Source of the DNA: Candidatus Omnitrophota bacterium
GTDB lineage: Bacteria > Omnitrophota > Gorgyraeia > Zapsychrales > Zapsychraceae
Assembly: GCA_023247445.1 (NCBI GenBank)
Contig: JAHFGL010000005.1
Location: 11,087 to 75,086 of the forward strand
Length of the DNA stretch: 64,000 nt
Direction: 5' to 3'
Shown here: positions 1 through 52,826 of the stretch, piece after piece
Position numbering within the stretch: the first letter of the stretch is position 1
Layout of the letters: each line of letters begins with the position of its first letter
The notes under the pieces: model-generated
Databases searched by the model: none
What the model saw: only the letters and a program-made list of their open reading frames with translations
Told to the model about the DNA's origin: nothing
Made by a program: the position numbers and the translations under genes

Positions 1-715
1 GATAATTCTGTTCAATATAATTACAAAAAATTTCAACGCTTGGTGTATGTCGTAGATCTAATCCATAAATATGCAACCGATCCGCCCACTTTGAAAAATC
101 ACTTTCACGGGCAAACCGAAGCGCTGAATCAACAGGAAATCGTGTCGTCGCAATAACGTGAGCTCCCGCGCGTAACATCATGAGTGTTGACTGATAACCG
201 ATTTTAAGACGTGATCCCGTAATAAGCGCTACTTGTCCATCAAGGGGTGCTGTTTGAAAACGTTTTGCGTAATTTAACTGCGCGCAAGATGGACACATCG
301 CATCATAAAAATGATGCAACTGTGTAAACTCTGCCTTGCAGATATAACAATTGCGAGGCGTTTTTAACTCGATAGTCTCTCGTTTTAAATCAGCGTTAGC
401 ATCTGCAATCCGTAAAGGAGCAGTAAAAACCGTGGCTTCACGGGCACTGCGGATTCCGGTTGCGGCCCGAGCGCGCCGTTCGAAATTATCAACTTTTTGA
501 CGCTCAAGTTTTCGATTATCTCTTTTTCTTTTTCGCAGTTCATCACGATGAGGACGGGAGAGTTGTCCGGTGGCGATAATTAAAGCTGTTCTTTGCTGCG
601 CAGATAAATGAGCAAGCTGTTCGCTATTCTGAACTAAATCTTCAAGGAGAGAAATACATGCCTGAATTTCTTCTTCTGTATATTTTGCTGCGGCAATTTG
701 CTTGGCTGGATGCAT
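1..715 (-). CDS. SDR-family oxidoreductase, N-terminal part (gene continues beyond window start). CxxC...CxxC segment precedes the Rossmann GxxxGxG-like '[11 protein letters not shown]'
   Basis: Hand translation of minus strand from ATG at ~713-715: ...[22 protein letters not shown]...[33 protein letters not shown]. The reading frame is open to the window edge. Confidence 0.6.
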
Positions 716-742
716 TACTTAAATATTCTACCGATCGTTTAG

Positions 743-1021
743 TTAACTTCTTTTTGTAATCTCAATTAAATGATATCCAAATTCTGTCTTTACTGGGCCA
801 TGAACTTTCCCGACAGCATCTTTAAAAACAACTGTATCAAATTCTTCAACCATCTGACCTGGTTCAAACTCACCAAGATCACCACCATCCTCCGCGGAAG
901 GACATTGCGAATGGGCCTTCGCCACTTCTGCAAAATTCTTTCCTGATTCAATTTCTTTTTTTAACTTTAAACATTCAGTTTCCGTTGAAACTAAAATATG
1001 TCGCGCACTGGCTTTTGTCAT
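743..1021 (-). CDS. ppiC: Parvulin-type peptidyl-prolyl cis-trans isomerase (PpiC-like)
   Basis: 92 aa. ARHILV...CPSAEDGGDLGEF..GQMV..F....GPVKTEFGYHLIEI matches the parvulin rotamase signature. AGGAGAAG SD lies upstream. Confidence 0.85.
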   Translation of the reverse strand: MTKASARHILVSTETECLKLKKEIESGKNFAEVAKAHSQCPSAEDGGDLGEFEPGQMVEEFDTVVFKDAVGKVHGPVKTEFGYHLIEITKRS

Positions 1022-1152
1022 ACTCTTCTCCTTTAATATTTATGATGGCCTCTAAACTGTGGGACATTTTAGACAAATTCTAGCCGAAACTCAACAAATT
1101 ATTAGCCAAGCAAACTCAATAGGCTTACCTAACAATTTTCTTAAAAGTAATC

Positions 1153-1386
1153 TTAATAATTAAAAAGGTCCTTGAGGGTAATAGAATTTTTGGGGTGGGC
1201 GGCAATAATGGCAGAAAAAATTTTATTCTGTACATTAACCGTGAGTTTTCTTCCTTTACATCCTTTGGCTACCATTTTATACGTTAGTTGATTACTTGAT
1301 GCGGCGACCAGATCATGACTTGTTAAATTCAGCCGGGCCATTACCGCCACCAGCGGCTGTGGCCCAAAATCACGCGACTCCGTCAT
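1153..1386 (-). CDS. Small putative HTH DNA-binding protein (weak Ner/Nlp-like resemblance)
   Basis: 77-aa ORF in operon-like tandem with a small Cys-rich ORF and ppiC. The assignment is weak. Confidence 0.4.
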   Translation of the reverse strand: MTESRDFGPQPLVAVMARLNLTSHDLVAASSNQLTYKMVAKGCKGRKLTVNVQNKIFSAIIAAHPKNSITLKDLFNY

Positions 1387-1408
1387 AAACGTATTCCTTT
1401 AATGTCAT

Positions 1409-1564
1409 CTAATCTCGTTTTATCGCGGCGGCACTTCGTTGATCTTGTGATATATGACTAGAATGCAGGTGGCAATAAGCCTCATGATTATAAATGCTTA
1501 AAATCTGTTTGCAGCGAAACTGCTTACACTTTCGTCCTTTATGAGAGGTTATTATTTTTTTCAT
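1409..1564 (-). CDS. Small Cys-rich (CxxC...C.H) hypothetical protein, 51 aa
   Basis: Not in the ORF track because it is under 60 aa. MKKIITSHKGRKCKQFRCKQILSIYNHEAYCHLHSSHISQDQRSAAAIKRD. AAGGAG SD is 5 nt before the ATG, directly upstream of the 1153..1386 ORF. Confidence 0.4.
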   Translation of the reverse strand: MKKIITSHKGRKCKQFRCKQILSIYNHEAYCHLHSSHISQDQRSAAAIKRD

Positions 1565-1766
1565 ATTACTCCTTTTGAAGATCCAAAAAAAGTGGCAAAG
1601 GTTAGTGCTCTTCTTTGCAACTTGAGATCTTCTAATTTGTTTTCAGTATATCAGATAATATGTTAATACACTCGATTAAAATAATTGAAATAACTTAATG
1701 ATCTTAGTTGTGCTGTGCTATTATATGTACAAATAAAGCAGCAACTTTATAAAGGAGGAATTAAAA

Positions 1767-1814
1767 ATGGCTACAAAAAAGAAAGCAAAAAAGAAGACAG
1801 CAAAAAAGAAATAA
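1767..1814 (+). CDS. Tiny lysine-rich peptide MATKKKAKKKTAKKK (15 aa)
   Basis: Strong SD AAAGGAGG lies 7 nt upstream. A promoter-like TTGTGC...TATTATAT precedes it. An intrinsic terminator follows immediately. Confidence 0.3.
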   Translation: MATKKKAKKKTAKKK

Positions 1815-1837
1815 TTTTTACGATCATAAATAAAAAA

Positions 1838-1869
1838 CCCTCTGCGGTATTTCTCAGAGGGTTTTTTAT
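1838..1869 (+). terminator. Rho-independent terminator (ccctctg...cagaggg + T6)
   Basis: 7-bp GC-rich stem followed by TTTTTT. Confidence 0.7.
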
Positions 1870-1906
1870 TTGTAGCAAATAAATTTCGCTGCCAAAACAA
1901 ACAAAT

Positions 1907-2248
1907 TTATGCCCGAATATTTAATAACTTCTTAAGTCGACTGATTGAACCATCATCCATCTTCATAAAATAGATCGCAATCCCTTCCCCAACAGCAATC
2001 CGAGAAACACGCGCTGAGCCTTGCACAACTTCCTTAGCATTAGTTGCCGAACAATAAATCGTAAAATCAAGCTCATCGTTGATTTGCAAATAAATACTAT
2101 GTTTAATTTTAATAAATGCACTTTTAAAGGAAAGATCCTTAAGCTGTCCTTTCAAAGTAATTTGTGGACCTAAGCTGATTTCAATCGACAAATTAAGCGC
2201 GAATCGTTGAGCTTCTCGCTGGTTGTTATTAAAAGATCCTGGTGGCAT
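1907..2248 (-). CDS. PilZ-domain protein (c-di-GMP binding candidate)
   Basis: QREAQR (RxxxR) followed by DLSFKSA (D-x-S-x-x-G-like) motif. Confidence 0.55.
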   Translation of the reverse strand: MPPGSFNNNQREAQRFALNLSIEISLGPQITLKGQLKDLSFKSAFIKIKHSIYLQINDELDFTIYCSATNAKEVVQGSARVSRIAVGEGIAIYFMKMDDGSISRLKKLLNIRA

Positions 2249-2268
2249 CCCTCATCCCTTTCTCTATA

Positions 2269-2673
2269 TTATTCATCCCAAGCGGTCGAGTTTGCCGGTT
2301 GAGCATCTTGAACAACTTCTGCCTCAGAGGTAGATTGTCCACCGGACTCCGCTCTTTTAGGTAAAAAATGAATATTATCAGCGGTGATTCTAACACGGCT
2401 TTGTGTCTTGCCGTCTTTTTCCCAACGATCTTGTTTTAAGCGACCTTCAACAATAATTCCACTTCCTTTTTTCAAATATTTAACGCAATTTTCTGCCGTT
2501 GGTCCCCAAACTTCCACATCAAAATAAGATACTTCCGTAACCTTCTCACCTTTACTGGTATAAACGCGATTGTTGGCAATCGAAAGACTGCAAACTGATT
2601 TTCCCGATGGCGTATACTTTAATTCTGGATCTCTCGTCAAGTTTCCCATAATGTTGACACTGTTTAGACTCAT
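2269..2673 (-). CDS. ssb: Single-stranded DNA-binding protein
   Basis: MSLNSVNIMGNLTRDPELKYTPSGKSVCSLSIANNR...VEGRLKQDRWE is a typical OB fold, with an acidic C-terminal tail. AAGGAGAAA SD lies upstream. Confidence 0.9.
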   Translation of the reverse strand: MSLNSVNIMGNLTRDPELKYTPSGKSVCSLSIANNRVYTSKGEKVTEVSYFDVEVWGPTAENCVKYLKKGSGIIVEGRLKQDRWEKDGKTQSRVRITADNIHFLPKRAESGGQSTSEAEVVQDAQPANSTAWDE

Positions 2674-2764
2674 TGCTTTCTCCTTGAATAGATTGTTAAG
2701 TTTGACAAATTTATTTTTTGTTAAATATTCTTTCTTTTAGGGCTCTAGCTTAGCATAGACTTAT

Positions 2765-3523
2765 TTAAACGTCTGCTATCTTTTTCGCCGCATAGATGCC
2801 TTGCAACATCTGATGTTTTCGGCCAAAACCTTTGGTCTTAGTCATGCTAAATCCTTTTTGCGCTAAACCGCGACGGACGTGGCCAGCGACAGTAAAGGTG
2901 GCCACTGTCGTCCCCGCACGACTTAACGCCGCCATTTGTTCAAAGACCTCCGGCGACCACATCTCTGGATTTTTAGAAGGCCCAAAACCGTCAAGGAACC
3001 AGGCATCAACCGCGTATGACGCTTGGCGCATCTGGGCCAGCGCGCTTAACACATGATCAAAAATTAAAGTCAACTTGATTCTTCCACCAACAAAAATAAT
3101 ATGTTGAGATTCGATATTAATATTTGGATATTGAACAGTAAGTTGTGTGGAATATTCCTGCAGTTGCGGCCAAAGATTTAGCGCTTTGATTAAATCGTCA
3201 GCGCTTAGCGGAAACTGATCAAGGGAAATATAATGAAGCTTTGCGGCCGTCGGTGCACATTGTTCGAAGAGTTGCCAAGCGCATAAGAAATTAAGTCCGG
3301 TGCCAAAGCCTGTCTCAGCAATGACAAAGGAATTGGAATCCTGGGCAGAAAGATTTTCAAAACGTTCTTTTAACTGATTACCGCCACAAAAAATATACTG
3401 TGACTCATCGTACCCGTTATCCTGACAAAAATATTTATCATCAAAGGCCGTCGAATGCGGCAGGCCCTTCTCATCCCAACGAATTTTAGTATAAGTTATT
3501 TCTTTGACGGATTTAGTGGTCAT
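2765..3523 (-). CDS. MnmC-type SAM-dependent methyltransferase domain protein (tRNA mnm5U34 methyltransferase-like, stand-alone)
   Basis: ETGFGTGLNFLCAWQLF motif, characteristic of the MnmC methyltransferase domain. Confidence 0.65.
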   Translation of the reverse strand: MTTKSVKEITYTKIRWDEKGLPHSTAFDDKYFCQDNGYDESQYIFCGGNQLKERFENLSAQDSNSFVIAETGFGTGLNFLCAWQLFEQCAPTAAKLHYISLDQFPLSADDLIKALNLWPQLQEYSTQLTVQYPNINIESQHIIFVGGRIKLTLIFDHVLSALAQMRQASYAVDAWFLDGFGPSKNPEMWSPEVFEQMAALSRAGTTVATFTVAGHVRRGLAQKGFSMTKTKGFGRKHQMLQGIYAAKKIADV

Positions 3524-3891
3524 TAAAGCTTATTATATTTCGTATGTTTGCCTTTTGATTTCTCGATTGGATATTTAAGCGCATTCTTCTTCATTTTCAC
3601 ATCAATGGCGGCAAGTAAATCAATTTCTAAATTATCCGCAAGCTCAAATAAAAACATTGCCACATCAGCTAGCTCATCGGCGATTTCATCTTTACACTCT
3701 GCGCCATGCGTTTCCACCTCAGCCAGCGACTTCCATTGAAAATGCTCGAGCACTTCTGTCGCCTCTAAGACCAAGGACAACGCCACATCCTTGTGATTAT
3801 GAAACTGTTTCCAATCACGCTCGTCTCTAAATTGTTTTATCTTTTGGGTTATTTGTTTTATGTCTGGCATAAGTTCCTCACTTTGATCCAA
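3523..3891 (-). CDS. MazG-like nucleotide pyrophosphohydrolase
   Basis: EATEVLEHFQW...EIADELADV are MazG NTP-PPase helices. Confidence 0.75.
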   Translation of the reverse strand: MDQSEELMPDIKQITQKIKQFRDERDWKQFHNHKDVALSLVLEATEVLEHFQWKSLAEVETHGAECKDEIADELADVAMFLFELADNLEIDLLAAIDVKMKKNALKYPIEKSKGKHTKYNKL

Positions 3892-3989
3892 GTTTAACCA
3901 TTAACTTAAAATAAGTAAAATCCTTATTTTTTGCTCAAAAAAATAGGACAGACACTTTTAAAATGTCTGTCCTATTTTCTACACTTTAC

Positions 3990-5747
3990 CTACTTAATAT
4001 CGTAGGCGACGATTGTCTTTTTCCCTTTAAAGAAATAAACCCGTCCACCCGGATGATCAACCGTATACTCTGGTTCTTTTTCATTAAATATAAATTCACC
4101 GTCAGTATTTCCCGTTGCTAAATTAATTGCGAGGATCCCAATCCCACTGCCTTCCTCTCCTGTAACTTTCGTCAGAATAAAGGCATGCTCTTGACCACTT
4201 TGCGATTTAGAATAACGTTTATCCATATATCTATCCATACGGGCGAATGTGCTGGTAATATTCTGTGAAGCTCCTGACATCGAAGATTGTCCCGTTGCAT
4301 ATTGCATTTGATATCCTAAAGCAGCAAACGCCGAAACACCAACCATCAGCGCCGTGCCTAAAGTCGATGGCCCTGGTGATGGATAATACAACGACCAATT
4401 GATTTCTTTTGTATCTGGAGCAAACGAAAGAATATGCTGACGTCCACGAATAACAACGGCCCCATTATCTTGACCAGAAATCGAGACAGGAGGATCTTCC
4501 CGTTCCTTCCCAACAGCCATTTTCGCTCCAGCTTTTAGAAGACCACCCAACCCTCCCGTTAATGCCTTAACTCCGGCGGAAGCGACATCGGTCGTCCCAA
4601 TGCTGCGTTTAAATTCTAAAGGAGTTTTAAATGCTTCTTTAACCTTACCTTTACTTTGGCTATCAATCCCGATTAAACTTTTTGCATCAGCCAACATAAC
4701 GGTGTGTAGCGCTGGCAAATAAACCAAATTTGTTAACCCACCACTAGCACCGGTATATTCCCACAAAGCTGATCCATCGGTCTTGTTATACGATTTAACG
4801 GCTAAAGGTTTGTCCAACAAGAAATCCTTAGCGCCTGGACTAAAAAAGTTTCCACCAATCTTAGCTAACACCATTTCATCGGCAACGATTAACTGTGAAA
4901 TAAGTCCAGAACGAACTTTCTCACTTTTCCATTTCACCTCGCCCGTATTTTTATCAACCGCATAAACTTCTCCATTACCAGTGGCATACACAACATCTCC
5001 CTCGATAATCGGTGCCGCATAAGATTTTTTATAAGTTTTATCGGCCGTTGGAAATTCAACACCCCAAAGAATATTTCCTGTGGTCACATCCACGCAGTGC
5101 AGTCCAGCAATAGAAAAATAAGCGTTATTGCCGTCGAAAACAGGATCTTGATAACCGCCCAAATCAAGTGTCACACTAAACATCCCAGAATTATCCGCGA
5201 CATAAAGTGGAATTTTCTTTGGATTGACCGGAAACGGCGATTCCCATTTTTGCTCACCGGTCACCGCATCAAAGGCCAAGAGATAAATCCCAGGATCTTT
5301 ATTTTTGTCCGTATAAACATTGGAAACAAAGATAGTCATGGTTTTATCAGGAACTGTATAAATCCCAAGAGGTGCGCCAAACATTTTATCCGTCTTCCAT
5401 TTTGTCTGGCCAGAACCCATATCAATAGCTTCGATAATTGATTTACTCCCTGCAATTCCCGTGCTTTGCACAACAATAAGAATCGGGTATCCCGAAACTT
5501 CGCGAACCTCATACGGCGCCAAATTCGAAAAGTCTTCACGCGTCCACATCACTTCGCCGGTTTCTGGATTGTAGCTCGAAAGCGATCCCTTCGCTCCGAT
5601 GAGCAATGTTCCATAAACAGTCGTTCGCCCCCAGAGAATTTTATCTTTGACAGGCTGTTGCCAAACTTCTGTTGAAGCCATCGCTAGGGGTGAAAAGTTA
5701 AGCGTAATAAACGTTAAAAGTATTAAACAACTGATCACTCTTCTCAT
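3990..5747 (-). CDS. Secreted PQQ-like beta-propeller repeat protein
   Basis: Signal peptide MRRVISCLILLTFITLNFSPLAMA. Repeated TG(E/N)xxW blades follow. Start chosen at internal Met; the track ORF extends to 5798. Confidence 0.65.
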   Translation of the reverse strand: MRRVISCLILLTFITLNFSPLAMASTEVWQQPVKDKILWGRTTVYGTLLIGAKGSLSSYNPETGEVMWTREDFSNLAPYEVREVSGYPILIVVQSTGIAGSKSIIEAIDMGSGQTKWKTDKMFGAPLGIYTVPDKTMTIFVSNVYTDKNKDPGIYLLAFDAVTGEQKWESPFPVNPKKIPLYVADNSGMFSVTLDLGGYQDPVFDGNNAYFSIAGLHCVDVTTGNILWGVEFPTADKTYKKSYAAPIIEGDVVYATGNGEVYAVDKNTGEVKWKSEKVRSGLISQLIVADEMVLAKIGGNFFSPGAKDFLLDKPLAVKSYNKTDGSALWEYTGASGGLTNLVYLPALHTVMLADAKSLIGIDSQSKGKVKEAFKTPLEFKRSIGTTDVASAGVKALTGGLGGLLKAGAKMAVGKEREDPPVSISGQDNGAVVIRGRQHILSFAPDTKEINWSLYYPSPGPSTLGTALMVGVSAFAALGYQMQYATGQSSMSGASQNITSTFARMDRYMDKRYSKSQSGQEHAFILTKVTGEEGSGIGILAINLATGNTDGEFIFNEKEPEYTVDHPGGRVYFFKGKKTIVAYDIK

Positions 5748-5865
5748 CGATGATCCTTTCATTAGTATCTTGTTGTACGATAAAATTTTTCGGGTCATTA
5801 TAGACTAGGGATTATTATTCAGGCAAGGAGTTTTTAGATCTCAAGAATTTGGCAGGTAAAATTTA

Positions 5866-6105
5866 TCAAGGGGATGTAAACTGCTTGGCATAACGATCCA
5901 CCAGTTCACGGATCATTCTCTGATATTTGATATTATTCTTTTGTGCTTGTCGTTTGAAAAAGTCCAGACTAGTCTTAGTCAATGATAAGGTAACCTTAAC
6001 GGTTTCATCTGGCATAATCAACTGGTGAGGCGGGGGAAGAAAATCCTTAACCTTTGTTAATTTACCAACAGGTTTGTCGTTATTTCTTTCAATCTTTCTT
6101 ATCAT
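5866..6105 (-). CDS. brnA: BrnA antitoxin (RHH/CopG-like)
   Basis: 79 aa, overlapping the upstream BrnT (DUF497) gene. Confidence 0.75.
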   Translation of the reverse strand: MIRKIERNNDKPVGKLTKVKDFLPPPHQLIMPDETVKVTLSLTKTSLDFFKRQAQKNNIKYQRMIRELVDRYAKQFTSP

Positions 6106-6373
6106 AGTAAGAGACTCCTTTGCGCCAATAACCAGCGCCTATAATTCTAACTTTCCCATCACGATAAATAAAACGAACAGTGATGATTCTAGTTTCAACT
6201 TGTCCAATACAGAATAAACGTTCTTCCTGCTGGTTATGTCTTGCGTCAACATAGATCTTTCTTTTCGGATCTCTAAACGCCTTTGCTGCCGTACGAAAAT
6301 CAACCCCATGCTTTTTAATATTAATTTCTTCTTTCACAGGATCCCATACAAAATCAGATTCATGTTGCCTCAT
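6089..6373 (-). CDS. brnT: BrnT toxin (DUF497)
   Basis: FVWDPVKEEINIKKHGVDF N-terminus is typical of BrnT. Confidence 0.8.
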   Translation of the reverse strand: MRQHESDFVWDPVKEEINIKKHGVDFRTAAKAFRDPKRKIYVDARHNQQEERLFCIGQVETRIITVRFIYRDGKVRIIGAGYWRKGVSYYDKKD

Positions 6374-6592
6374 ATCAAGTATACCTCAAACATATTATTT
6401 AGCAATATTTCTATACATATATTAATATGGTCTATTGTAAACATAAAACACATCTTGCCCAAAAAATAAAAACCCGCTCTTTTCCGCTTGGGGATAAGAA
6501 CGGGTTAAATTGAACTACTTATTAAAAGTTATTTTATCGTGCCTTCGCTTAATTGCAACTTTTTATTTTATTGACCACAAACCTATTCGAGA

Positions 6593-8506
6593 TCAACCAT
6601 TTTTTCGGGAGTCTTCGAGGAATTCCCAACGTTCAAAGACTTTCAGAAGCTCGTCTTCAATTTGCTCGAGTCTACTTTTCGTTTGAGCGATTTCTTGAGA
6701 AGCTTTCTTAAAGAAAGCGGGATCGAGCATCAATGTATAAAGTTCATCTTGCTCGAGTTCGAGTTTTTCGATTTTGGCAGGAAGGGCGGCCAGCTCTTGT
6801 TCTTCTTTAAACGATAGTTTGTGAGGCTTTTGTTTTTCCGTTTTAACAACTTGTTTAACTTCTGGCTTCTCTTCTTTATTTAAATCCTTTTGTTTCGCTT
6901 CCTTAATATTAGCTTCACGCTGAGTTAACCAATCATCATAGCCGCCAACATATTCATTAACGACACCTTCGCCTTCTAAAACAATCGTGCTCGTAACCAC
7001 ATTATTTAAAAACGCGCGGTCGTGACTGACTAAAAGCAGCGTTCCAGAATAGTCGAGTAACAATTCTTCCAAAAGTTCTAACGTTTCCACATCCAAATCA
7101 TTGGTGGGTTCGTCCATAACCAAAACGTTCGATGGTTTAGTAAATAATCGCGCCAGGAGCAATCGATTGCGTTCACCGCCGGAAAGAACCTTGACCGGCG
7201 TGCGCGCACGATCCGGTGAGAAAAGAAAATCCTGCATGTAACCAATAATATGCCGCGGCTTGCCATTAATCATGATTGTGTCGCTATTGCCGCAAATATT
7301 TTCGATAACGGTCTTCTCTTCATCCAACTGTTCACGCAATTGATCGTAATAAGCAATTTCGATATTGGTTCCTAACTTCGCCTTGCCTTGGATAGGCGCC
7401 AGTTTTCCAAAAAGAATACGAAGAAGTGTTGTCTTTCCTGAACCATTTGGACCCAAGATTCCTATCTTGTCGCCGCGCATGATGTTTGTTGAAAAATTCT
7501 TAATCAAACATTTCTCATCATACCAATAACCTAAGTTGGCAGCCTTAACGACCAAATGTCCAGAGCGTTCCGCTTCTTGCGCCAGCATATTAACTTTGCC
7601 GACTTCTTTACGCTGCGCTTTTTTGACTTCGCGCATGCGCTCAAGCGCCTTCACTCGGCCTTCATTACGAACACGACGAGCTTTAACGCCTTTACGGATC
7701 CAAATCTCTTCCTGCGCTAAACGCTTGTCAAACTCACGCTGCTGAACTTCTTCATTTTCAAGCGCCATTTTTTTGCGCTGCAAAAATGTTTCATAATCAC
7801 AACTCCAGCTAAAAATCTTGCCGCGGTCCAGCTCAACAATCCGCGTGGCTAAATGTCGCATAAACATACGGTCGTGAGTAATAAATAATACTGTCCCGGA
7901 ATAATTCTTAAGAAATCCTTCCAGCCAATCGATGGATTCAATATCTAAATGGTTGGTGGGCTCATCCAAGAGAAGAATATCAGGTTTAAGAGCCAAGGCT
8001 CTGGCTAAAAGCGTACGGCGCTTTTGCCCGCCGGATAAATGTTCAAAGTTTGCTTCCGGATCAAGCTTCATGTGCTCAATCACCAGTTCAACTTCACTAT
8101 TAACATCCCAACTGTCAGTGCGCGTTAATTCTTCTTGAACATTATCAAGCTGGCGCAAGAGTTCTGGCGTGTGCTCGGTATGCAAACGATGACTAATGTG
8201 GTGAAAATCTTTCAGAAGCTCGCCGCGTTTACCTAAACCAGAGGCGACGATATCAAAAACGTTTCCAGTAACCCCAGGTGGAATTTCCTGCGGCAGGTGA
8301 GTAACGGTCACGCCTTGTTGACGGACAATCTCGCCCTCATCAGGCCCAAATTGACCAGCGATAAGTTTCATTAAAGTCGTTTTACCAGCACCGTTACGCC
8401 CCAACAAAGCGACACGTTCGCCTGGCTCAAGCTGCAAGCTTAGCTTATCGAAAAGTAACGGCCCGCCGAAGGCGACGGATATTTCTTGTAAACTGATCAA
8501 AGCCAT
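6593..8506 (-). CDS. ABC-F family ATPase (Uup/EttA-like), two ABC domains plus C-terminal coiled coil
   Basis: Two Walker A motifs (GRNGAGKTT, GPNGSGKTT), two LSGGQ/LSGGE signatures, and a charged linker. No obvious SD before the ATG. Confidence 0.9.
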   Translation of the reverse strand: MALISLQEISVAFGGPLLFDKLSLQLEPGERVALLGRNGAGKTTLMKLIAGQFGPDEGEIVRQQGVTVTHLPQEIPPGVTGNVFDIVASGLGKRGELLKDFHHISHRLHTEHTPELLRQLDNVQEELTRTDSWDVNSEVELVIEHMKLDPEANFEHLSGGQKRRTLLARALALKPDILLLDEPTNHLDIESIDWLEGFLKNYSGTVLFITHDRMFMRHLATRIVELDRGKIFSWSCDYETFLQRKKMALENEEVQQREFDKRLAQEEIWIRKGVKARRVRNEGRVKALERMREVKKAQRKEVGKVNMLAQEAERSGHLVVKAANLGYWYDEKCLIKNFSTNIMRGDKIGILGPNGSGKTTLLRILFGKLAPIQGKAKLGTNIEIAYYDQLREQLDEEKTVIENICGNSDTIMINGKPRHIIGYMQDFLFSPDRARTPVKVLSGGERNRLLLARLFTKPSNVLVMDEPTNDLDVETLELLEELLLDYSGTLLLVSHDRAFLNNVVTSTIVLEGEGVVNEYVGGYDDWLTQREANIKEAKQKDLNKEEKPEVKQVVKTEKQKPHKLSFKEEQELAALPAKIEKLELEQDELYTLMLDPAFFKKASQEIAQTKSRLEQIEDELLKVFERWEFLEDSRKNG

Positions 8507-50883: not shown

Positions 50884-51133
50884 TTTTACCTAGCCTTTTT
50901 TAATGATGTTAAAAATAGCTAAACTTGAAATAGAATTGTTTGGTTCGGTTGGTATCCATAATGAAGTACATATATACTACAAATTTAAAAACATTTCCAA
51001 TATTATTTTTGGCTGTGAAAGTGATTTAATTATATATGAAATCTACTTGGGTTTAATATTTTTTTATAAATTCTTTAAATCCAAAACGCGCCCCTTGCGC
51101 GAATCTTCCCCTTCGCTTATAATCACGGCAATC

Positions 51134-52099
51134 ATGTCCAAAGCCCCCGCGCTAGCCAAATTCAACAAACTACTCGATGACATCGCGCGTATTTATACAA
51201 CAGCCCGGCAAGCGCAGGTGCGTTTCGCCTGGGAGCTGGGACGACGTGTTGTTGAGGTTGAGCAGGACGGCGACGTCCACGCCGCGTATGGCTCGAAACT
51301 GATCCCTAAAATTTCGAAAGAACTTACCAAAAAGTTTGGACAGGGGTTTTCTCCTGAATCGTTACGAAAGATGCGTCAATTTTATACGCTTAATCCAATT
51401 CAGCCGGCGCCGGCTAAATTGGACTGGACTGATTATGTCGAACTTTTGCCGATTAAGGATAAACAAACACGCACACGTCTGGAACAGCGCGCTGTTAAAG
51501 AAGATCTTAATACTCGCGAGATTCGCCGCATTGTTCAAAAGATCAATAAAACTCCCGCCGCAAAATCCGCCAAAGCACTTGCGCCCTTAAAGCGTCCGAT
51601 GGATCTTAAACTTAACACATTTGCTCGATCAAAATTAACGGCCAAAATTGACAAGGACTTTGTCCTTATTGACTGCGGATTTTTTGTCAACTGGCCTGTT
51701 AAAAAAGAATCTCTAACTGACCTCGTTATTAGCGACACTCCCTCCTACACCTACGCGGCCACCATCGACCGCATTGTCGATGGCGACACGCTGATTGTTT
51801 TAGTTGAGGTGGGTTTCGGCATTATCATGCACGACAAATTGCGGCTGCGCGGCATTGATTGTCCGGAGCTGGGCACCCCCGAGGGTGAAAAGGCCAAGCG
51901 ATATGTCACCAGCCTCCTGCCCGTTGGGTCAGCGATTGTTCTTAAATCCCACAAAACCCGTACTGATACCCACGGCCGGTTTGTGGCGGATGTATTCTTT
52001 AAAGTAAACCAAAACAACAACGATGAAATCATCCAAAGCGGAGTATATTTAAATCAGCACCTTCTGGATCAAAGCCTCGCGGTCCGGATGAAAGAGTAA
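51134..52099 (+). CDS. Putative nuclease: YhcG/DUF1016 N-terminal domain fused to a staphylococcal-nuclease (SNase/thermonuclease) domain
   Basis: FAWELGRRVVEVEQ...SKELTKKFGQGFSPESLRKMRQFY is DUF1016-N-like. VDGDTLIVLV...LRLRGIDCPELGTPEGEKAKRYVT...THGRFVADVFF is SNase-like. GC is noticeably higher than flanking DNA. A TATAAT -10 lies upstream. Start set at Met78 of the track ORF. Confidence 0.65.
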   Translation: MSKAPALAKFNKLLDDIARIYTTARQAQVRFAWELGRRVVEVEQDGDVHAAYGSKLIPKISKELTKKFGQGFSPESLRKMRQFYTLNPIQPAPAKLDWTDYVELLPIKDKQTRTRLEQRAVKEDLNTREIRRIVQKINKTPAAKSAKALAPLKRPMDLKLNTFARSKLTAKIDKDFVLIDCGFFVNWPVKKESLTDLVISDTPSYTYAATIDRIVDGDTLIVLVEVGFGIIMHDKLRLRGIDCPELGTPEGEKAKRYVTSLLPVGSAIVLKSHKTRTDTHGRFVADVFFKVNQNNNDEIIQSGVYLNQHLLDQSLAVRMKE

Positions 52100-52111
52100 T
52101 CCTATCTAATT

Positions 52112-52420
52112 ATGTCTGAACTTTTACCGATTATATTTTCACCACTCGCCGTACTTATCGGTTATCCCTATTTGGCGCTAATTCCTGCAATTTTTTTGGG
52201 TATCGTTTATTTTAAATTAAAAAAAAATATAGTCGGGATAACGGCTCTCTTGTGGATCATTTACTCTGTATACGAAACTCTTAATTTACTTAGAATTACT
52301 TGTTCTGGTGAATGTAATATTAGGGTAGATTTAATTTTAATATTTCCTTTTTTAACAATACTGACGTTAATATCTCTCTTTCAAATAATAAGGGCAGCTT
52401 TCGTCAAAAGATTACGTTAG
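52112..52420 (+). CDS. Small 3-TM membrane protein, unknown function, downstream of the nuclease
   Basis: 102 aa, hydrophobic, AT-rich codons. Confidence 0.5.
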   Translation: MSELLPIIFSPLAVLIGYPYLALIPAIFLGIVYFKLKKNIVGITALLWIIYSVYETLNLLRITCSGECNIRVDLILIFPFLTILTLISLFQIIRAAFVKRLR

Positions 52421-52539
52421 ATAGATTCGTAAGGATAAGAATTGGAGCATGACAATTTTGTCTCACATGAGACTATCGTTTGCAATTTAAACGGAATTAT
52501 TTTACAATGAGGCACTTCACTGGAGCCCGAAGAACATTC

Positions 52540-52740
52540 ATGAAAATTACAATTAATGGACAATCTAAAGAACTAAACGATCGATCCAGCTTGCACGAGA
52601 TCATTACTCAATTTTCCAAAGACTGCTCACGTGTCATCGCTGAGGTCAATGGCGAGATTGTTAAAAGCCCTGTGTGGCCTTCGACAACCATTAAAGATGG
52701 CGACACAATTGAACTAGTGACTTTCGTCGGCGGCGGATAG
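52540..52740 (+). CDS. thiS: Sulfur-carrier protein ThiS
   Basis: 66 aa ending in GG. Start set at MKITING; the track ORF begins at 52480. Confidence 0.8.
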   Translation: MKITINGQSKELNDRSSLHEIITQFSKDCSRVIAEVNGEIVKSPVWPSTTIKDGDTIELVTFVGGG

Positions 52741-52745
52741 TTTTA

Positions 52746-52826
52746 CAGCTACCAGCTATCAGCCTTCAGCTGCCAGCAGTCTTCAGCTGAAAGCTACTGA
52801 TAGCTGAGAGCTGAAGGCTGAAAGCT
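52746..52826. repeat. AGCT-rich palindromic repeat (copy 2) in the thiS-thiG intercistronic gap
   Basis: cagctatcagccttcagctgccagcagtcttcagctgaaagctactgatagctgagagctgaaggctgaaagct. Confidence 0.6.

What the first reader, a model, noticed from the sequence alone, without database searches (positions are those of the whole stretch)
51134..52420. GC-enriched nuclease gene (DUF1016-N domain fused to SNase) with adjacent small membrane protein: candidate horizontally acquired or defence module
The coding region has visibly higher GC than its surroundings, and spurious ORFs appear in alternate frames, as expected for GC-rich DNA. The protein joins the N-terminal domain typical of YhcG-family PD-(D/E)XK nucleases to a thermonuclease-like domain instead. 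It is followed by an AT-rich 102-aa 3-TM protein. The pair is wedged between speH and the thiSGH operon, with a long AT-rich leader and a TATAAT promoter.
Basis: partly seen in the sequence, partly recalled or inferred. Interest (0 to 1): 0.6.

Follow-up and report, generated by a model that had tools for sequence, protein, structure and literature searches.

The report
Inserted stand-alone DUF1016_N–SNase nuclease gene
An Omnitrophota bacterium carries an extra, GC-rich gene for a two-domain nuclease (a probable DNA-binding head fused to a staphylococcal-type nuclease) that its relatives lack at this spot; it belongs to a large, uncharacterised, patchily distributed and often multi-copy family that probably acts in genome conflict, and the neighbouring small membrane protein is not its partner.

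Summary
Window 51134-52099 (+) encodes a 321-aa protein with a DUF1016_N domain (E 8e-24) and an SNase domain. The SNase fold is confirmed and the catalytic residues are intact. This gene has the highest GC and GC3 of 42 long ORFs in the window, and the excess lies in synonymous codon choice.

Twelve syntenic loci from Omnitrophota relatives, including the closest one (LeuRS 76%), have thiS only 240-520 bp from speH. None has the nuclease or the 102-aa ORF, so the DNA is extra here.

The protein is not a one-off fusion. Hundreds of about 320-aa homologues exist at 50-66% identity. They are mostly from Omnitrophota, but some are labelled Nitrospirota, Patescibacteria or Bathyarchaeia. Family members have no conserved neighbour, are often multi-copy or fragmented within one MAG, and sometimes carry their own promoter just before the ATG.

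The small membrane protein is a real conserved gene, but it sits elsewhere in relatives and is never linked to the nuclease.

A defence role is plausible but unproven. The N-domain hits PADLOC PDC-S02 models, and classical DUF1016 genes are enriched in R-M/BREX loci. However, the flanks here are mostly housekeeping genes or toxin-antitoxin islets.

Verdict: a horizontally acquired member of an undescribed nuclease-swapped sister clade of YhcG. Moderate interest.

The parts
51134..52099 (+). CDS of the 321-aa DUF1016_N-SNase nuclease (true start; the stop codon is included)
   Evidence: ORF. The start is fixed by the alignment with 28 homologues. There are 738 homologues at E<=1e-3, the best non-self at 66% identity.
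50903..51133 (+). Spurious 77-codon N-terminal extension in the public gene call (398 aa)
   Evidence: P0001 is called as 398 aa. No homologue aligns to this AT-rich stretch. It overlaps the ancestral speH-proximal spacer.
51188..51538 (+). DUF1016_N helical domain (aa 19-135), tentatively a ParB-like HTH DNA-binding domain
   Evidence: Pfam E 8.1e-24 and PADLOC PDC-S02 models down to E 1.5e-28. The AlphaFold models are all-helical. The top 12 Foldseek PDB hits are ParB/Noc DNA-binding domains, but they are weak (E 0.04-0.6, TM about 0.23). Weak HTH_ParB and Spo0J sequence hits agree.
51581..51748 (+). Conserved inter-domain region (aa 150-205) with near-invariant L152, D180-x-G182-F183 and Y207; role unknown
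   Evidence: These residues are invariant in A1 and at least 90% conserved in the 89-sequence alignment A3 at 30-56% identity. The model predicts short beta strands here.
51737..52084 (+). SNase (staphylococcal nuclease-like) OB-fold catalytic domain (aa 202-317)
   Evidence: Pfam SNase, PHROG 452 'endonuclease' at E 1.1e-21, and PDB thermonuclease HMM hits. Foldseek gives TM(target) about 0.67 and rmsd about 2.6 A to SNase. The catalytic and Ca-site equivalents D218(D21), R237(R35), D242(D40), E245(E43) and R282(R87) are conserved across the family.
51095..51123 (+). Promoter-like element TTGCGC-N17-TATAAT that ends 10 nt before the ATG (near-leaderless mRNA, no Shine-Dalgarno sequence)
   Evidence: Sequence. 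The same layout (TTGC.., 16-17 nt, TATAAT, about 8 nt, ATG) occurs in relatives L002 and L004. The consensus scan did not list it because the -35 matches only 3 of 6. Function is inferred.
51087..51101 (.). GC-rich hairpin CGCGCCCCTTGCGCG at the left edge of the GC-rich block, overlapping the -35
   Evidence: Listed as terminator-like on the minus strand. It marks the sharp AT-to-GC transition seen in the sequence. Its role is unknown.
52112..52420 (+). 102-aa small membrane protein; adjacent and also absent from relatives at this site, but not a partner of the nuclease
   Evidence: There are 20 homologues at 38-64% identity, with an invariant loop motif C64-x-G-x-C68-N-I-R-x-D73. Homologues lie in other contexts. 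In L161 the gene lies among genes that are syntenic to window 1-8500. Its GC is below expectation, 31.0% vs 35.4%.
50884..51070 (.). Ancestral speH-proximal part of the speH-thiS spacer (AT-rich), including the conserved motif at 50973-50987
   Evidence: The motif TATACTACAAATTTA is shared with the spacers of relatives.
52479..52508 (+). Conserved thiS promoter-like element (TTTGCA-N18-TACAAT), which marks the right-hand ancestral spacer
   Evidence: Promoter scan. The same TTTGCA...TAnAAT element is seen in nine relatives' spacers.

Best explanation
Shown:
- Window 51134-52099 is an intact, stand-alone accessory gene. It entered the speH-thiS spacer of this Omnitrophota lineage by horizontal transfer from a GC-richer donor, probably within the phylum.
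- It encodes a cytoplasmic two-domain nuclease. The C-terminal SNase-fold domain has a complete catalytic and Ca2+-binding residue set.
- The N-terminal DUF1016_N helical domain is the head domain of YhcG-type PD-(D/E)XK nucleases. The SNase-fused proteins form their own large clade.

Inferred:
- The N-domain binds DNA in the manner of a ParB-type HTH and positions or gates the otherwise non-specific SNase domain.
- The protein then degrades foreign DNA (phage or plasmid). It would be a single-protein conflict or defence nuclease, analogous to the candidate defence gene family PDC-S02 but with a different nuclease module.
- The gene appears to be transcribed from its own TTGnnn-N17-TATAAT promoter as a nearly leaderless mRNA.
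- The downstream 102-aa membrane-protein gene is an unrelated neighbour. It may be co-transcribed, since the gap is only 12 bp.
For: Architecture and active site:
- Domains. SNase fold.
- D218, R237, E245 and R282 are invariant in 29 close homologues and in at least 78 of 89 diverged homologues.
- There is no hydrophobic N-terminus (sequence).

Insertion:
- Nine relatives (L166, L167, L169, L173, L174, L185, L188, L189, L198) plus L248, L249 and L250 keep thiH-thiG-thiS <-> speH (most with cysK and/or leuS) with a 240-520 bp spacer and no nuclease.
- The ancestral spacer motifs are retained on both sides of the extra DNA.

Composition:
- GC 48.4% against 42.1% expected from the amino-acid content; GC3 z 2.65.
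- Family-wide GC3 excess of +6.2 points in 52 of 66 loci, p about 1e-8.

Host and distribution:
- The host is Omnitrophota. The closest homologues are also Omnitrophota, but some at over 50% identity are labelled Nitrospirota, Patescibacteria or Bathyarchaeia.

Accessory behaviour:
- No conserved neighbour.
- At least 14 MAGs hold two or more copies, and there are tandem and fragmented copies.
- Islets with BrnT/BrnA, Fic, AAA_14-DUF4143 and DUF6036 genes, and cassette order swapped between related genomes.

Distinct clade:
- 71 of 88 nearest N-domain relatives carry SNase and only 1 carries YhcG_C.

Defence link of the parent family:
- PADLOC PDC-S02 hits.
- DUF1016 genes are enriched 17-fold beside phase-variable R-M/BREX genes (PMC9881135) and are carried on mobile elements (PMC4316617).

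DNA-binding N-domain. Own promoter, also seen in L002 and L004.
Against: - No experiment shows defence for this family or even for YhcG (PMC1189080).
- The PADLOC hits cover the N-domain only.
- Immediate neighbours are mostly housekeeping genes, and no defence family occurs in more than 2 of 135 neighbours, so there is no clear defence-island signal.
- The ParB-like assignment rests on weak scores (Foldseek E 0.04-0.6, TM about 0.23; Pfam E 0.05).
- The relative domain arrangement in the model is uncertain (pTM 0.54).
- How a cytoplasmic non-specific nuclease is kept harmless is unknown.
- The transfer mechanism is unknown. There are no flanking repeats, recombinase genes or conserved end motifs.
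- Cross-phylum labels come from MAGs and could include binning errors.
Confidence: 0.55

Rival explanations
1. Selfish gene. The DUF1016_N-SNase gene is a self-propagating, homing-endonuclease-like or addictive single-gene element. Its DNA-binding head would direct a double-strand break at empty sites, and repair would copy the promoter-plus-ORF unit into intergenic spacers. That would explain the multi-copy, decaying and context-free distribution without any benefit to the host.
For: - The shared unit is gene-sized. Paralogous copies in one MAG share DNA only from about 30-100 bp upstream to about 10 bp downstream of the ORF.
- The gene has its own promoter.
- It is inserted in an intergenic spacer without recombinase genes or repeats.
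- At least 14 MAGs have two or more copies, with tandem copies (L034, L006) and fragmented copies (L019, L023, L026, L031, L073).
- About 18 of 80 matches lie within 500 bp of a contig end or are cut by it.
- The GC3 excess is systematic.
Against: - Copies within one genome are only about 80-90% identical, not near-identical.
- There is no conserved flanking or target motif upstream or downstream among 18 close loci.
- SNase chemistry is non-specific, and SNase is not a known homing-endonuclease fold.
- The window holds a single copy.
- The active site and the N-domain are under strong purifying selection across 30-66% identity, which suggests a function that is maintained by selection.
Confidence: 0.15
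2. Two-gene module. The nuclease and the 102-aa membrane protein work together, for example as effector plus membrane sensor, immunity protein or holin-like partner, and were acquired as one block.
For: - Both genes are absent from the speH-thiS spacer in all 12 syntenic relatives.
- They are co-directional and only 12 bp apart, with no terminator between them.
Against: - Homologues of the small protein never neighbour a nuclease. In L161 the gene lies among genes syntenic to a different part of the window.
- Among 71 nuclease loci, only 8 have any small co-directional ORF within 100 bp downstream. Only 2 of those have a hydrophobic segment, and none is homologous.
- The composition deviates in opposite directions: +6.3 points for the nuclease and -4.4 points for the small ORF against expectation.
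Confidence: 0.05
3. Phage-derived remnant or housekeeping nuclease. The gene is either a leftover from a prophage (SNase-like phage endonuclease) or an ordinary cellular nuclease for repair, competence or nucleotide salvage.
For: - The SNase part scores best against the phage family PHROG 452 (E 1.1e-21).
- More than 550 viral-contig stretches encode related SNase domains.
- Neighbours are often housekeeping genes.
Against: - The best 80 viral matches cover only aa ~160-321 (mostly ~205-317); none includes the N-domain.
- No phage genes flank the gene in the window.
- The gene is absent at the syntenic site in all relatives examined.
- It is patchy, multi-copy and often degraded, which does not fit a core housekeeping enzyme.
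Confidence: 0.1

Closest known systems
YhcG / DUF1016 family (Pfam PF17761 N-domain + PF06250 YhcG_C PD-(D/E)XK nuclease; COG4804)
   Same: - Shares the N-terminal helical domain (E 8e-24).
- Shares the overall layout of a head domain plus a C-terminal nuclease, at about 320-375 aa.
- Shares the genomic behaviour reported for YhcG: no conserved neighbours, paralogue clusters, and carriage on mobile elements (PMC1189080; PMC4316617).
   Different: - The catalytic domain is an SNase OB-fold nuclease, not a PD-(D/E)XK nuclease. No YhcG_C match was found.
- The SNase-fused proteins form a separate clade of N-domains: 71 of 88 nearest relatives have SNase and 1 of 88 has YhcG_C.
- YhcG itself is functionally uncharacterised.
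PADLOC candidate defence system PDC-S02
   Same: 24 PDC-S02 HMMs match the protein, with the best at E 1.5e-28. It is a single-gene candidate system built on the same N-domain.
   Different: - The matches cover only aa ~15-180 (the strongest aa ~19-136). The nuclease part of the longer PDC-S02 models is not matched.
- PDC-S02 is itself a computational candidate. I found no experimental validation in the papers searched.
Staphylococcal nuclease / thermonuclease family (PF00565; COG1525 YncB)
   Same: The fold matches (TM to target about 0.67, rmsd about 2.6 A). The catalytic and Ca2+ ligands D21, R35, D40, E43 and R87 are conserved.
   Different: - There is no signal peptide, and there is an added 200-aa N-terminal region. 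The protein is presumably cytoplasmic, whereas the classical enzymes are secreted or surface-bound.
- Sequence identity is only about 22%.
- NCBIfam equivalog models score far below their cut-offs: 32 vs 180 bits and 30 vs 250 bits.
Small phage SNase-like endonucleases (PHROG 452)
   Same: This is the best-scoring relative of the C-terminal domain (E 1.1e-21, aa 202-304). The domain is abundant on viral contigs at 29-38% identity.
   Different: The phage proteins lack the DUF1016_N head. None of the best 80 viral matches extends upstream of about aa 160.
ParB/Noc HTH DNA-binding domain
   Same: The top 12 structural matches of the N-terminal model are ParB/Noc. Weak HTH_ParB and Spo0J sequence hits agree.
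   Different: The scores are not significant on their own (E 0.04-0.7, TM about 0.23). There is no ParB N-terminal CTPase domain. This is a lead, not an assignment.

Membership tests
DUF1016_N-SNase fusion family (uncharacterised; named in databases as 'DUF1016 N-terminal domain-containing protein' or 'thermonuclease family protein') | End-to-end collinear similarity to other family members of about 320 aa | tested here: met
   The 119 best non-self hits are 49-66% identical, most over 97-100% of the query. The alignment A1 has 57% mean column identity.
DUF1016_N-SNase fusion family (uncharacterised; named in databases as 'DUF1016 N-terminal domain-containing protein' or 'thermonuclease family protein') | Both Pfam domains above their gathering scores, plus the conserved family motifs (GFS..L..MR.FY, D-x-G-F, DGDT, RLRG.D.PE, GRF) | tested here: met
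   for the domains. for the motifs.
YhcG / DUF1016 nucleases (COG4804) | N-terminal DUF1016_N domain | tested here: met
   PF17761, E 8.1e-24, 84.7 bits against a cut-off of 32.8.
YhcG / DUF1016 nucleases (COG4804) | C-terminal PD-(D/E)XK nuclease domain (PF06250, E-D-E(I/L/V)K motif) | tested here: not met
   There is no YhcG_C hit at E<=1. The C-terminus is an SNase fold.
PADLOC PDC-S02 candidate defence system | Full-length match to the system's HMMs | tested here: inconclusive
   There are strong hits, but they cover only aa ~15-180 (the strongest aa ~19-136). For the long models they align only to the first ~190 of up to 357 profile positions (e.g. positions 21-151 of 351).
PADLOC PDC-S02 candidate defence system | Demonstrated protection against phage | not testable with these tools
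   This needs an infection assay. No experimental report turned up in the literature searches.
Anti-phage defence genes in general | Enrichment in defence islands, next to known defence genes | tested here: inconclusive
   Among 135 immediate neighbours, no PADLOC family occurs more than twice (type I S subunit, PDC-S01, PDC-S13, mad5). Most neighbours are housekeeping genes. Toxin-antitoxin and Fic islets occur in some loci.
Staphylococcal nuclease (SNase) superfamily | OB-fold nuclease domain with D21/D40 Ca2+ ligands and R35/E43/R87 catalytic residues | tested here: met
Staphylococcal nuclease (SNase) superfamily | Ca2+-dependent hydrolysis of DNA and RNA | not testable with these tools
   This needs enzymology.
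Two-gene toxin/immunity or effector/partner module with the 102-aa membrane protein | Conserved co-occurrence of the two genes across genomes | tested here: not met
Insertion sequence, transposon or integron cassette | Terminal inverted repeats, target-site duplication or attC, and an associated transposase or integrase | tested here: not met
   No flanking repeats bracket the unit in the window. No recombinase family appears among the top neighbour families. There is no shared end motif. Copies in one genome are only 80-90% identical.
Homing endonuclease gene | Recognised homing-endonuclease fold and a conserved target site, with filled and empty alleles sharing exact junctions | tested here: inconclusive
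   SNase is not a known homing-endonuclease fold (my own knowledge). Empty sites exist, but the spacers are too diverged for base-exact junctions. No target motif was found.

The most novel reading that the evidence does not exclude
The DUF1016_N-SNase genes could be a previously unrecognised class of autonomous single-gene selfish elements. Each would be a promoter-carrying ORF whose ParB-like head directs the SNase domain to make breaks that promote its own copying into intergenic spacers. This would amount to a new homing-nuclease type, spreading across Omnitrophota and into other phyla. The same logic might explain the enigmatic multi-copy YhcG/DUF1016 genes of Rickettsiales and mobile elements.
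Probability: 0.1. Interest if true: 0.8.

Novelty: new variant of a known kind. Interest (0 to 1): 0.38.

Why it matters
YhcG/DUF1016 proteins have been flagged since 2005 as predicted nucleases of unknown role. They recur on mobile elements, in R-M/BREX loci and in candidate defence lists. This locus shows that their N-terminal head also exists in a large sister clade where the PD-(D/E)XK nuclease is replaced by an SNase nuclease. That is the kind of effector swapping typical of conflict systems, and it implies that the head domain is the specificity or sensing module. The window provides a clean natural filled site to compare with empty sites, an intact gene with its own promoter, and a compact 321-aa protein suitable for testing. 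Testing it could assign a function to the whole DUF1016_N superfamily, which has more than 7,500 cluster representatives. On its own, though, it is one more uncharacterised accessory nuclease in an uncultured phylum.

Tried and rejected
- Second copy or flanking similarity. tblastn found only one copy in the window. DNA similarity to other loci stops at the ORF ends.
- Repeats around the gene. No terminal inverted or direct repeats bracket the unit; only short chance matches were found.
- Rfam. No riboswitch or other RNA family lies at the locus; the window has only three tRNAs, elsewhere.
- Consensus promoter scan. It missed the TATAAT because the -35 matches only 3 of 6. I located it by hand.
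- Conserved neighbour search. Clustering 1,039 ORFs from 80 loci gave nothing present in more than 8 loci. Bulk Pfam and PADLOC scans of 135 immediate neighbours gave no family in more than 2.
- Viral origin. The viral-contig scan matched the SNase part only.
- Base-exact insertion junctions. Long-gap alignment of the empty spacers to the filled one was too noisy. Only approximate limits could be set: 51070-51085 on the left and 52420-52455 on the right.
- Closer relatives. L247 is the same population (99.95% identical) and so is uninformative. L246 breaks 64 bp upstream of speH.
- Downstream or target motif among close loci. None was found.
- Organism names by exact look-up. None were returned. 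Taxonomy came from LeuRS homologues instead.
Full report
**What is there.**
- The long ORF at 50903..52099 (+) is really a 321-aa gene that starts at ATG 51134. All 28 aligned homologues begin at the equivalent 'MP..PA..RF.KL'.
- The public 398-aa gene call (P0001) is therefore over-extended into AT-rich spacer.
- Pfam finds DUF1016_N (aa 19-135, E 8.1e-24) and SNase (aa 235-304, 26.5 bits against a gathering score of 21).
- The SNase assignment has independent support. PHROG 452 'endonuclease' matches at E 1.1e-21. A family-profile search of PDB sequences finds thermonuclease. An AlphaFold model (mean pLDDT 83.9) has a C-terminal half that superposes on staphylococcal nuclease (TM to target about 0.67, rmsd about 2.6 A).
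- The residues aligned to SNase D21, R35, D40, E43 and R87 are D218, R237, D242, E245 and R282. They are invariant in 29 close homologues, except that D242 is N in 13 of them. They are kept in at least 78 of 89 homologues at 30-56% identity, where D242 is D or N in 77.
- The enzyme is therefore very probably active. It has no hydrophobic N-terminus, so it is probably cytoplasmic.

**Composition.**
- The gene is the GC maximum of the whole 64-kb window: 48.2% against a mean of 39.8% with SD 2.7.
- It ranks first of 42 long ORFs for GC (z 2.5) and GC3 (51.4% against 37.3%, z 2.65).
- With host codon usage its amino-acid composition predicts 42.1% GC, so the excess is synonymous.
Their density is the same in leuS.

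**The DNA is extra at this site.**
- LeuRS homologues place the host in Candidatus Omnitrophota.
- A metagenome scan with the adjacent SpeH found nine relatives (SpeH 64-79% identical). Each keeps thiH-thiG-thiS divergent from speH (most also with cysK and/or leuS), and thiS lies only 240-520 bp from speH. None has the nuclease or the 102-aa ORF.
- The closest relative found (L248, LeuRS 76%) and L249/L250 (73%) are also empty.
- In the window the same gap is 1,665 bp.
- The gap still carries the ancestral signals at its two ends: the speH-proximal motif at 50973-50987 and the thiS promoter-like TTTGCA-N18-TACAAT at 52479-52508.
- The junctions could only be placed approximately, at 51070-51085 and 52420-52455.
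- The spacer is variably occupied in the clade. Five relatives hold a conserved 65-66-aa zinc-ribbon ORF there.
- The 'long AT-rich leader' is thus the old speH-side spacer. The nuclease's TATAAT (51118-51123) lies only 10 nt from the ATG, with TTGCGC 17 nt upstream. The same layout occurs in relatives L002 and L004. This suggests a self-contained, nearly leaderless transcription unit.

**The family.**
- The fusion is not unique. 738 proteins match at E<=1e-3. The 119 best non-self matches are mostly about 320 aa and 49-66% identical, most over nearly the full length.
- Where they are named, they come from Omnitrophota, with some labelled Nitrospirota, Patescibacteria or Bathyarchaeia.
- A scan of species-representative genomes found at least 347 stretches. 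Besides Omnitrophota, these include Leptospiraceae, Alphaproteobacteria/Rickettsiales and Myxococcota at 25-35% identity.
- An exhaustive search with the N-domain alone gave 7,545 cluster representatives. Of the 88 nearest full-length ones, 71 carry SNase and only one carries the classical YhcG PD-(D/E)XK domain. The SNase-fused proteins therefore form a distinct sister clade of YhcG.
- A conserved inter-domain region with a near-invariant D180-x-G182-F183 motif has no explanation.
- The N-domain folded alone (pLDDT 71.7) gives ParB/Noc DNA-binding domains as its top 12 PDB matches. These are weak (E 0.04-0.6). They agree with weak HTH_ParB and Spo0J sequence hits. I treat DNA binding by a ParB-like HTH as a lead only.

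**Genomic behaviour.**
- Across 80 genomic loci no neighbouring gene family is conserved. The largest neighbour cluster is present in 8 loci, and no Pfam or PADLOC family occurs in more than 2 of 135 immediate neighbours.
- Neighbours are mostly housekeeping genes. In some loci the gene lies in islets with BrnT/BrnA, Fic, AAA_14-DUF4143 or DUF6036 genes.
- In the related trio L001/L005/L006, the nuclease and a BrnTA cassette have swapped order between conserved flanks.
- At least 14 MAGs contribute two or more loci. There are tandem copies (L034, L006) and fragmented copies (L019, L023, L026, L031, L073).
- Same-genome copies are 80-90% identical in DNA. The shared block is the ORF plus a few tens of bases.
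- Family-wide the gene is GC3-richer than its neighbours by 6.2 points, in 52 of 66 loci (p about 1e-8). Gene GC still tracks host GC (slope 0.88, r 0.80).
- On viral contigs only the SNase part is found.
- I found no flanking repeats, recombinase genes or shared end or target motifs.

**The small ORF.**
- The 102-aa ORF (52112-52420) is a genuine conserved small membrane protein. It has 20 homologues, three hydrophobic segments and an invariant C-x-G-x-C-N-I-R-x-D loop.
- It is not a partner of the nuclease. Its homologues sit in unrelated housekeeping contexts.
- In L161 it lies among genes that are syntenic to window 1-8500. L161 comes from the same sample as the closest relative.
- No nuclease locus has a homologous downstream gene.
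- Its GC deviates in the opposite direction: 31.0% observed against 35.4% expected.

**Interpretation.**
- Shown: this is an intact accessory nuclease gene that is extra in this lineage, carries a foreign-looking synonymous composition, and belongs to a large, patchy, frequently multi-copy family.
- Inferred: the head domain binds DNA and targets or gates the SNase domain. The protein then acts in genome conflict, most likely as a single-protein defence nuclease.
- The defence inference rests on the parent family. The N-domain hits PADLOC PDC-S02 models. DUF1016 genes are enriched 17-fold next to phase-variable R-M/BREX genes (PMC9881135). They are carried on mobile elements and occur as paralogues in Rickettsia (PMC4316617; PMC1189080).
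- YhcG itself is uncharacterised, and the neighbourhoods here give no clear defence-island signal. I therefore put this explanation at 0.55.
- The main rival is a selfish, homing-like or addictive single-gene element (0.15). It fits the gene-sized unit, the gene's own promoter, the multi-copy pattern and the decay. It is weakened by the divergence between copies and the lack of any target motif.
- The two-gene module (0.05) and the phage-remnant or housekeeping readings (0.1) fit poorly.

**Novelty and score.**
- The architecture is already catalogued under generic names in public databases. I found no description or experiment for it in the literature searched.
- I rate it as a new variant of a known kind: YhcG-type nucleases with the nuclease module swapped.
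- It is a good test case for the function of the DUF1016_N head, but it would not surprise a specialist. Interest 0.38.

Noticed in passing
window 52747-52826: An 80-nt AGCT-rich imperfect palindrome fills the thiS-thiG spacer. As RNA it folds into a long hairpin of -42.9 kcal/mol (z -5.07 against shuffles). It is the only copy in the window. Its function is unknown; it could be an attenuator, a processing site or a REP-like element.
   Followed up: partly
L188 5535-6001, L189 5485-6001, L198 5578-6001, L249 and L250 6026-6468: In five relatives the speH-thiS spacer holds a conserved 65-66-aa ORF on the speH strand. It has a CPxC...CHFCG zinc-ribbon motif and a C-terminal hydrophobic tail. The same spacer is empty in L166, L167 and L248, and it holds the nuclease plus the 102-aa ORF in the window. 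The spacer is therefore a variably occupied spot.
   Followed up: partly
window 52112-52420: The 102-aa ORF belongs to a small unannotated family of membrane proteins (88-117 aa, 20 homologues). The loop between the second and third hydrophobic segments has an invariant motif, R61-x2-C64-x-G66-x-C68-N-I70-R71-x-D73. There is no Pfam match, and its genomic position differs between relatives.
   Followed up: partly
window 50903-51133: The public gene prediction for the nuclease (P0001, 398 aa) starts 77 codons too early, inside the AT-rich speH-side spacer. No homologue supports the extension.
   Followed up: yes
L034 4572-7376; L006 8974-9621; L013 9068-9370: Family members occur in tandem. L034 has three adjacent paralogues, one with much lower GC (0.40 vs 0.55). 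L006 has an extra 215-aa ORF, and L013 an extra 100-aa ORF, that also match the family profile and lie directly after the full-length gene.
   Followed up: no
L001 2330-4192 vs L005 7216-8981 and L006 7287-8981: In three related Omnitrophota genomes the nuclease unit and a BrnT/BrnA toxin-antitoxin cassette lie between the same conserved flanks but in opposite order. The two cassettes also differ in identity (94% vs 84%). This points to shuffling of independent cassettes in an accessory hotspot.
   Followed up: partly
window 52421-52548: No TPP (THI-box) riboswitch is detected upstream of thiS at Rfam gathering thresholds. Only a conserved promoter-like TTTGCA-N18-TACAAT element is present. 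The more permissive E-value mode was not tried.
   Followed up: no
L161 4621-12184 vs window 1-8506: A contig from sample SRR23592405, the same sample as the closest relative L248, is syntenic to the left end of the window. The ABC-F protein is 83% identical and a methyltransferase is about 64% identical, but the gene order is rearranged. This contig carries the small-ORF homologue that the window has beside the nuclease.
   Followed up: partly
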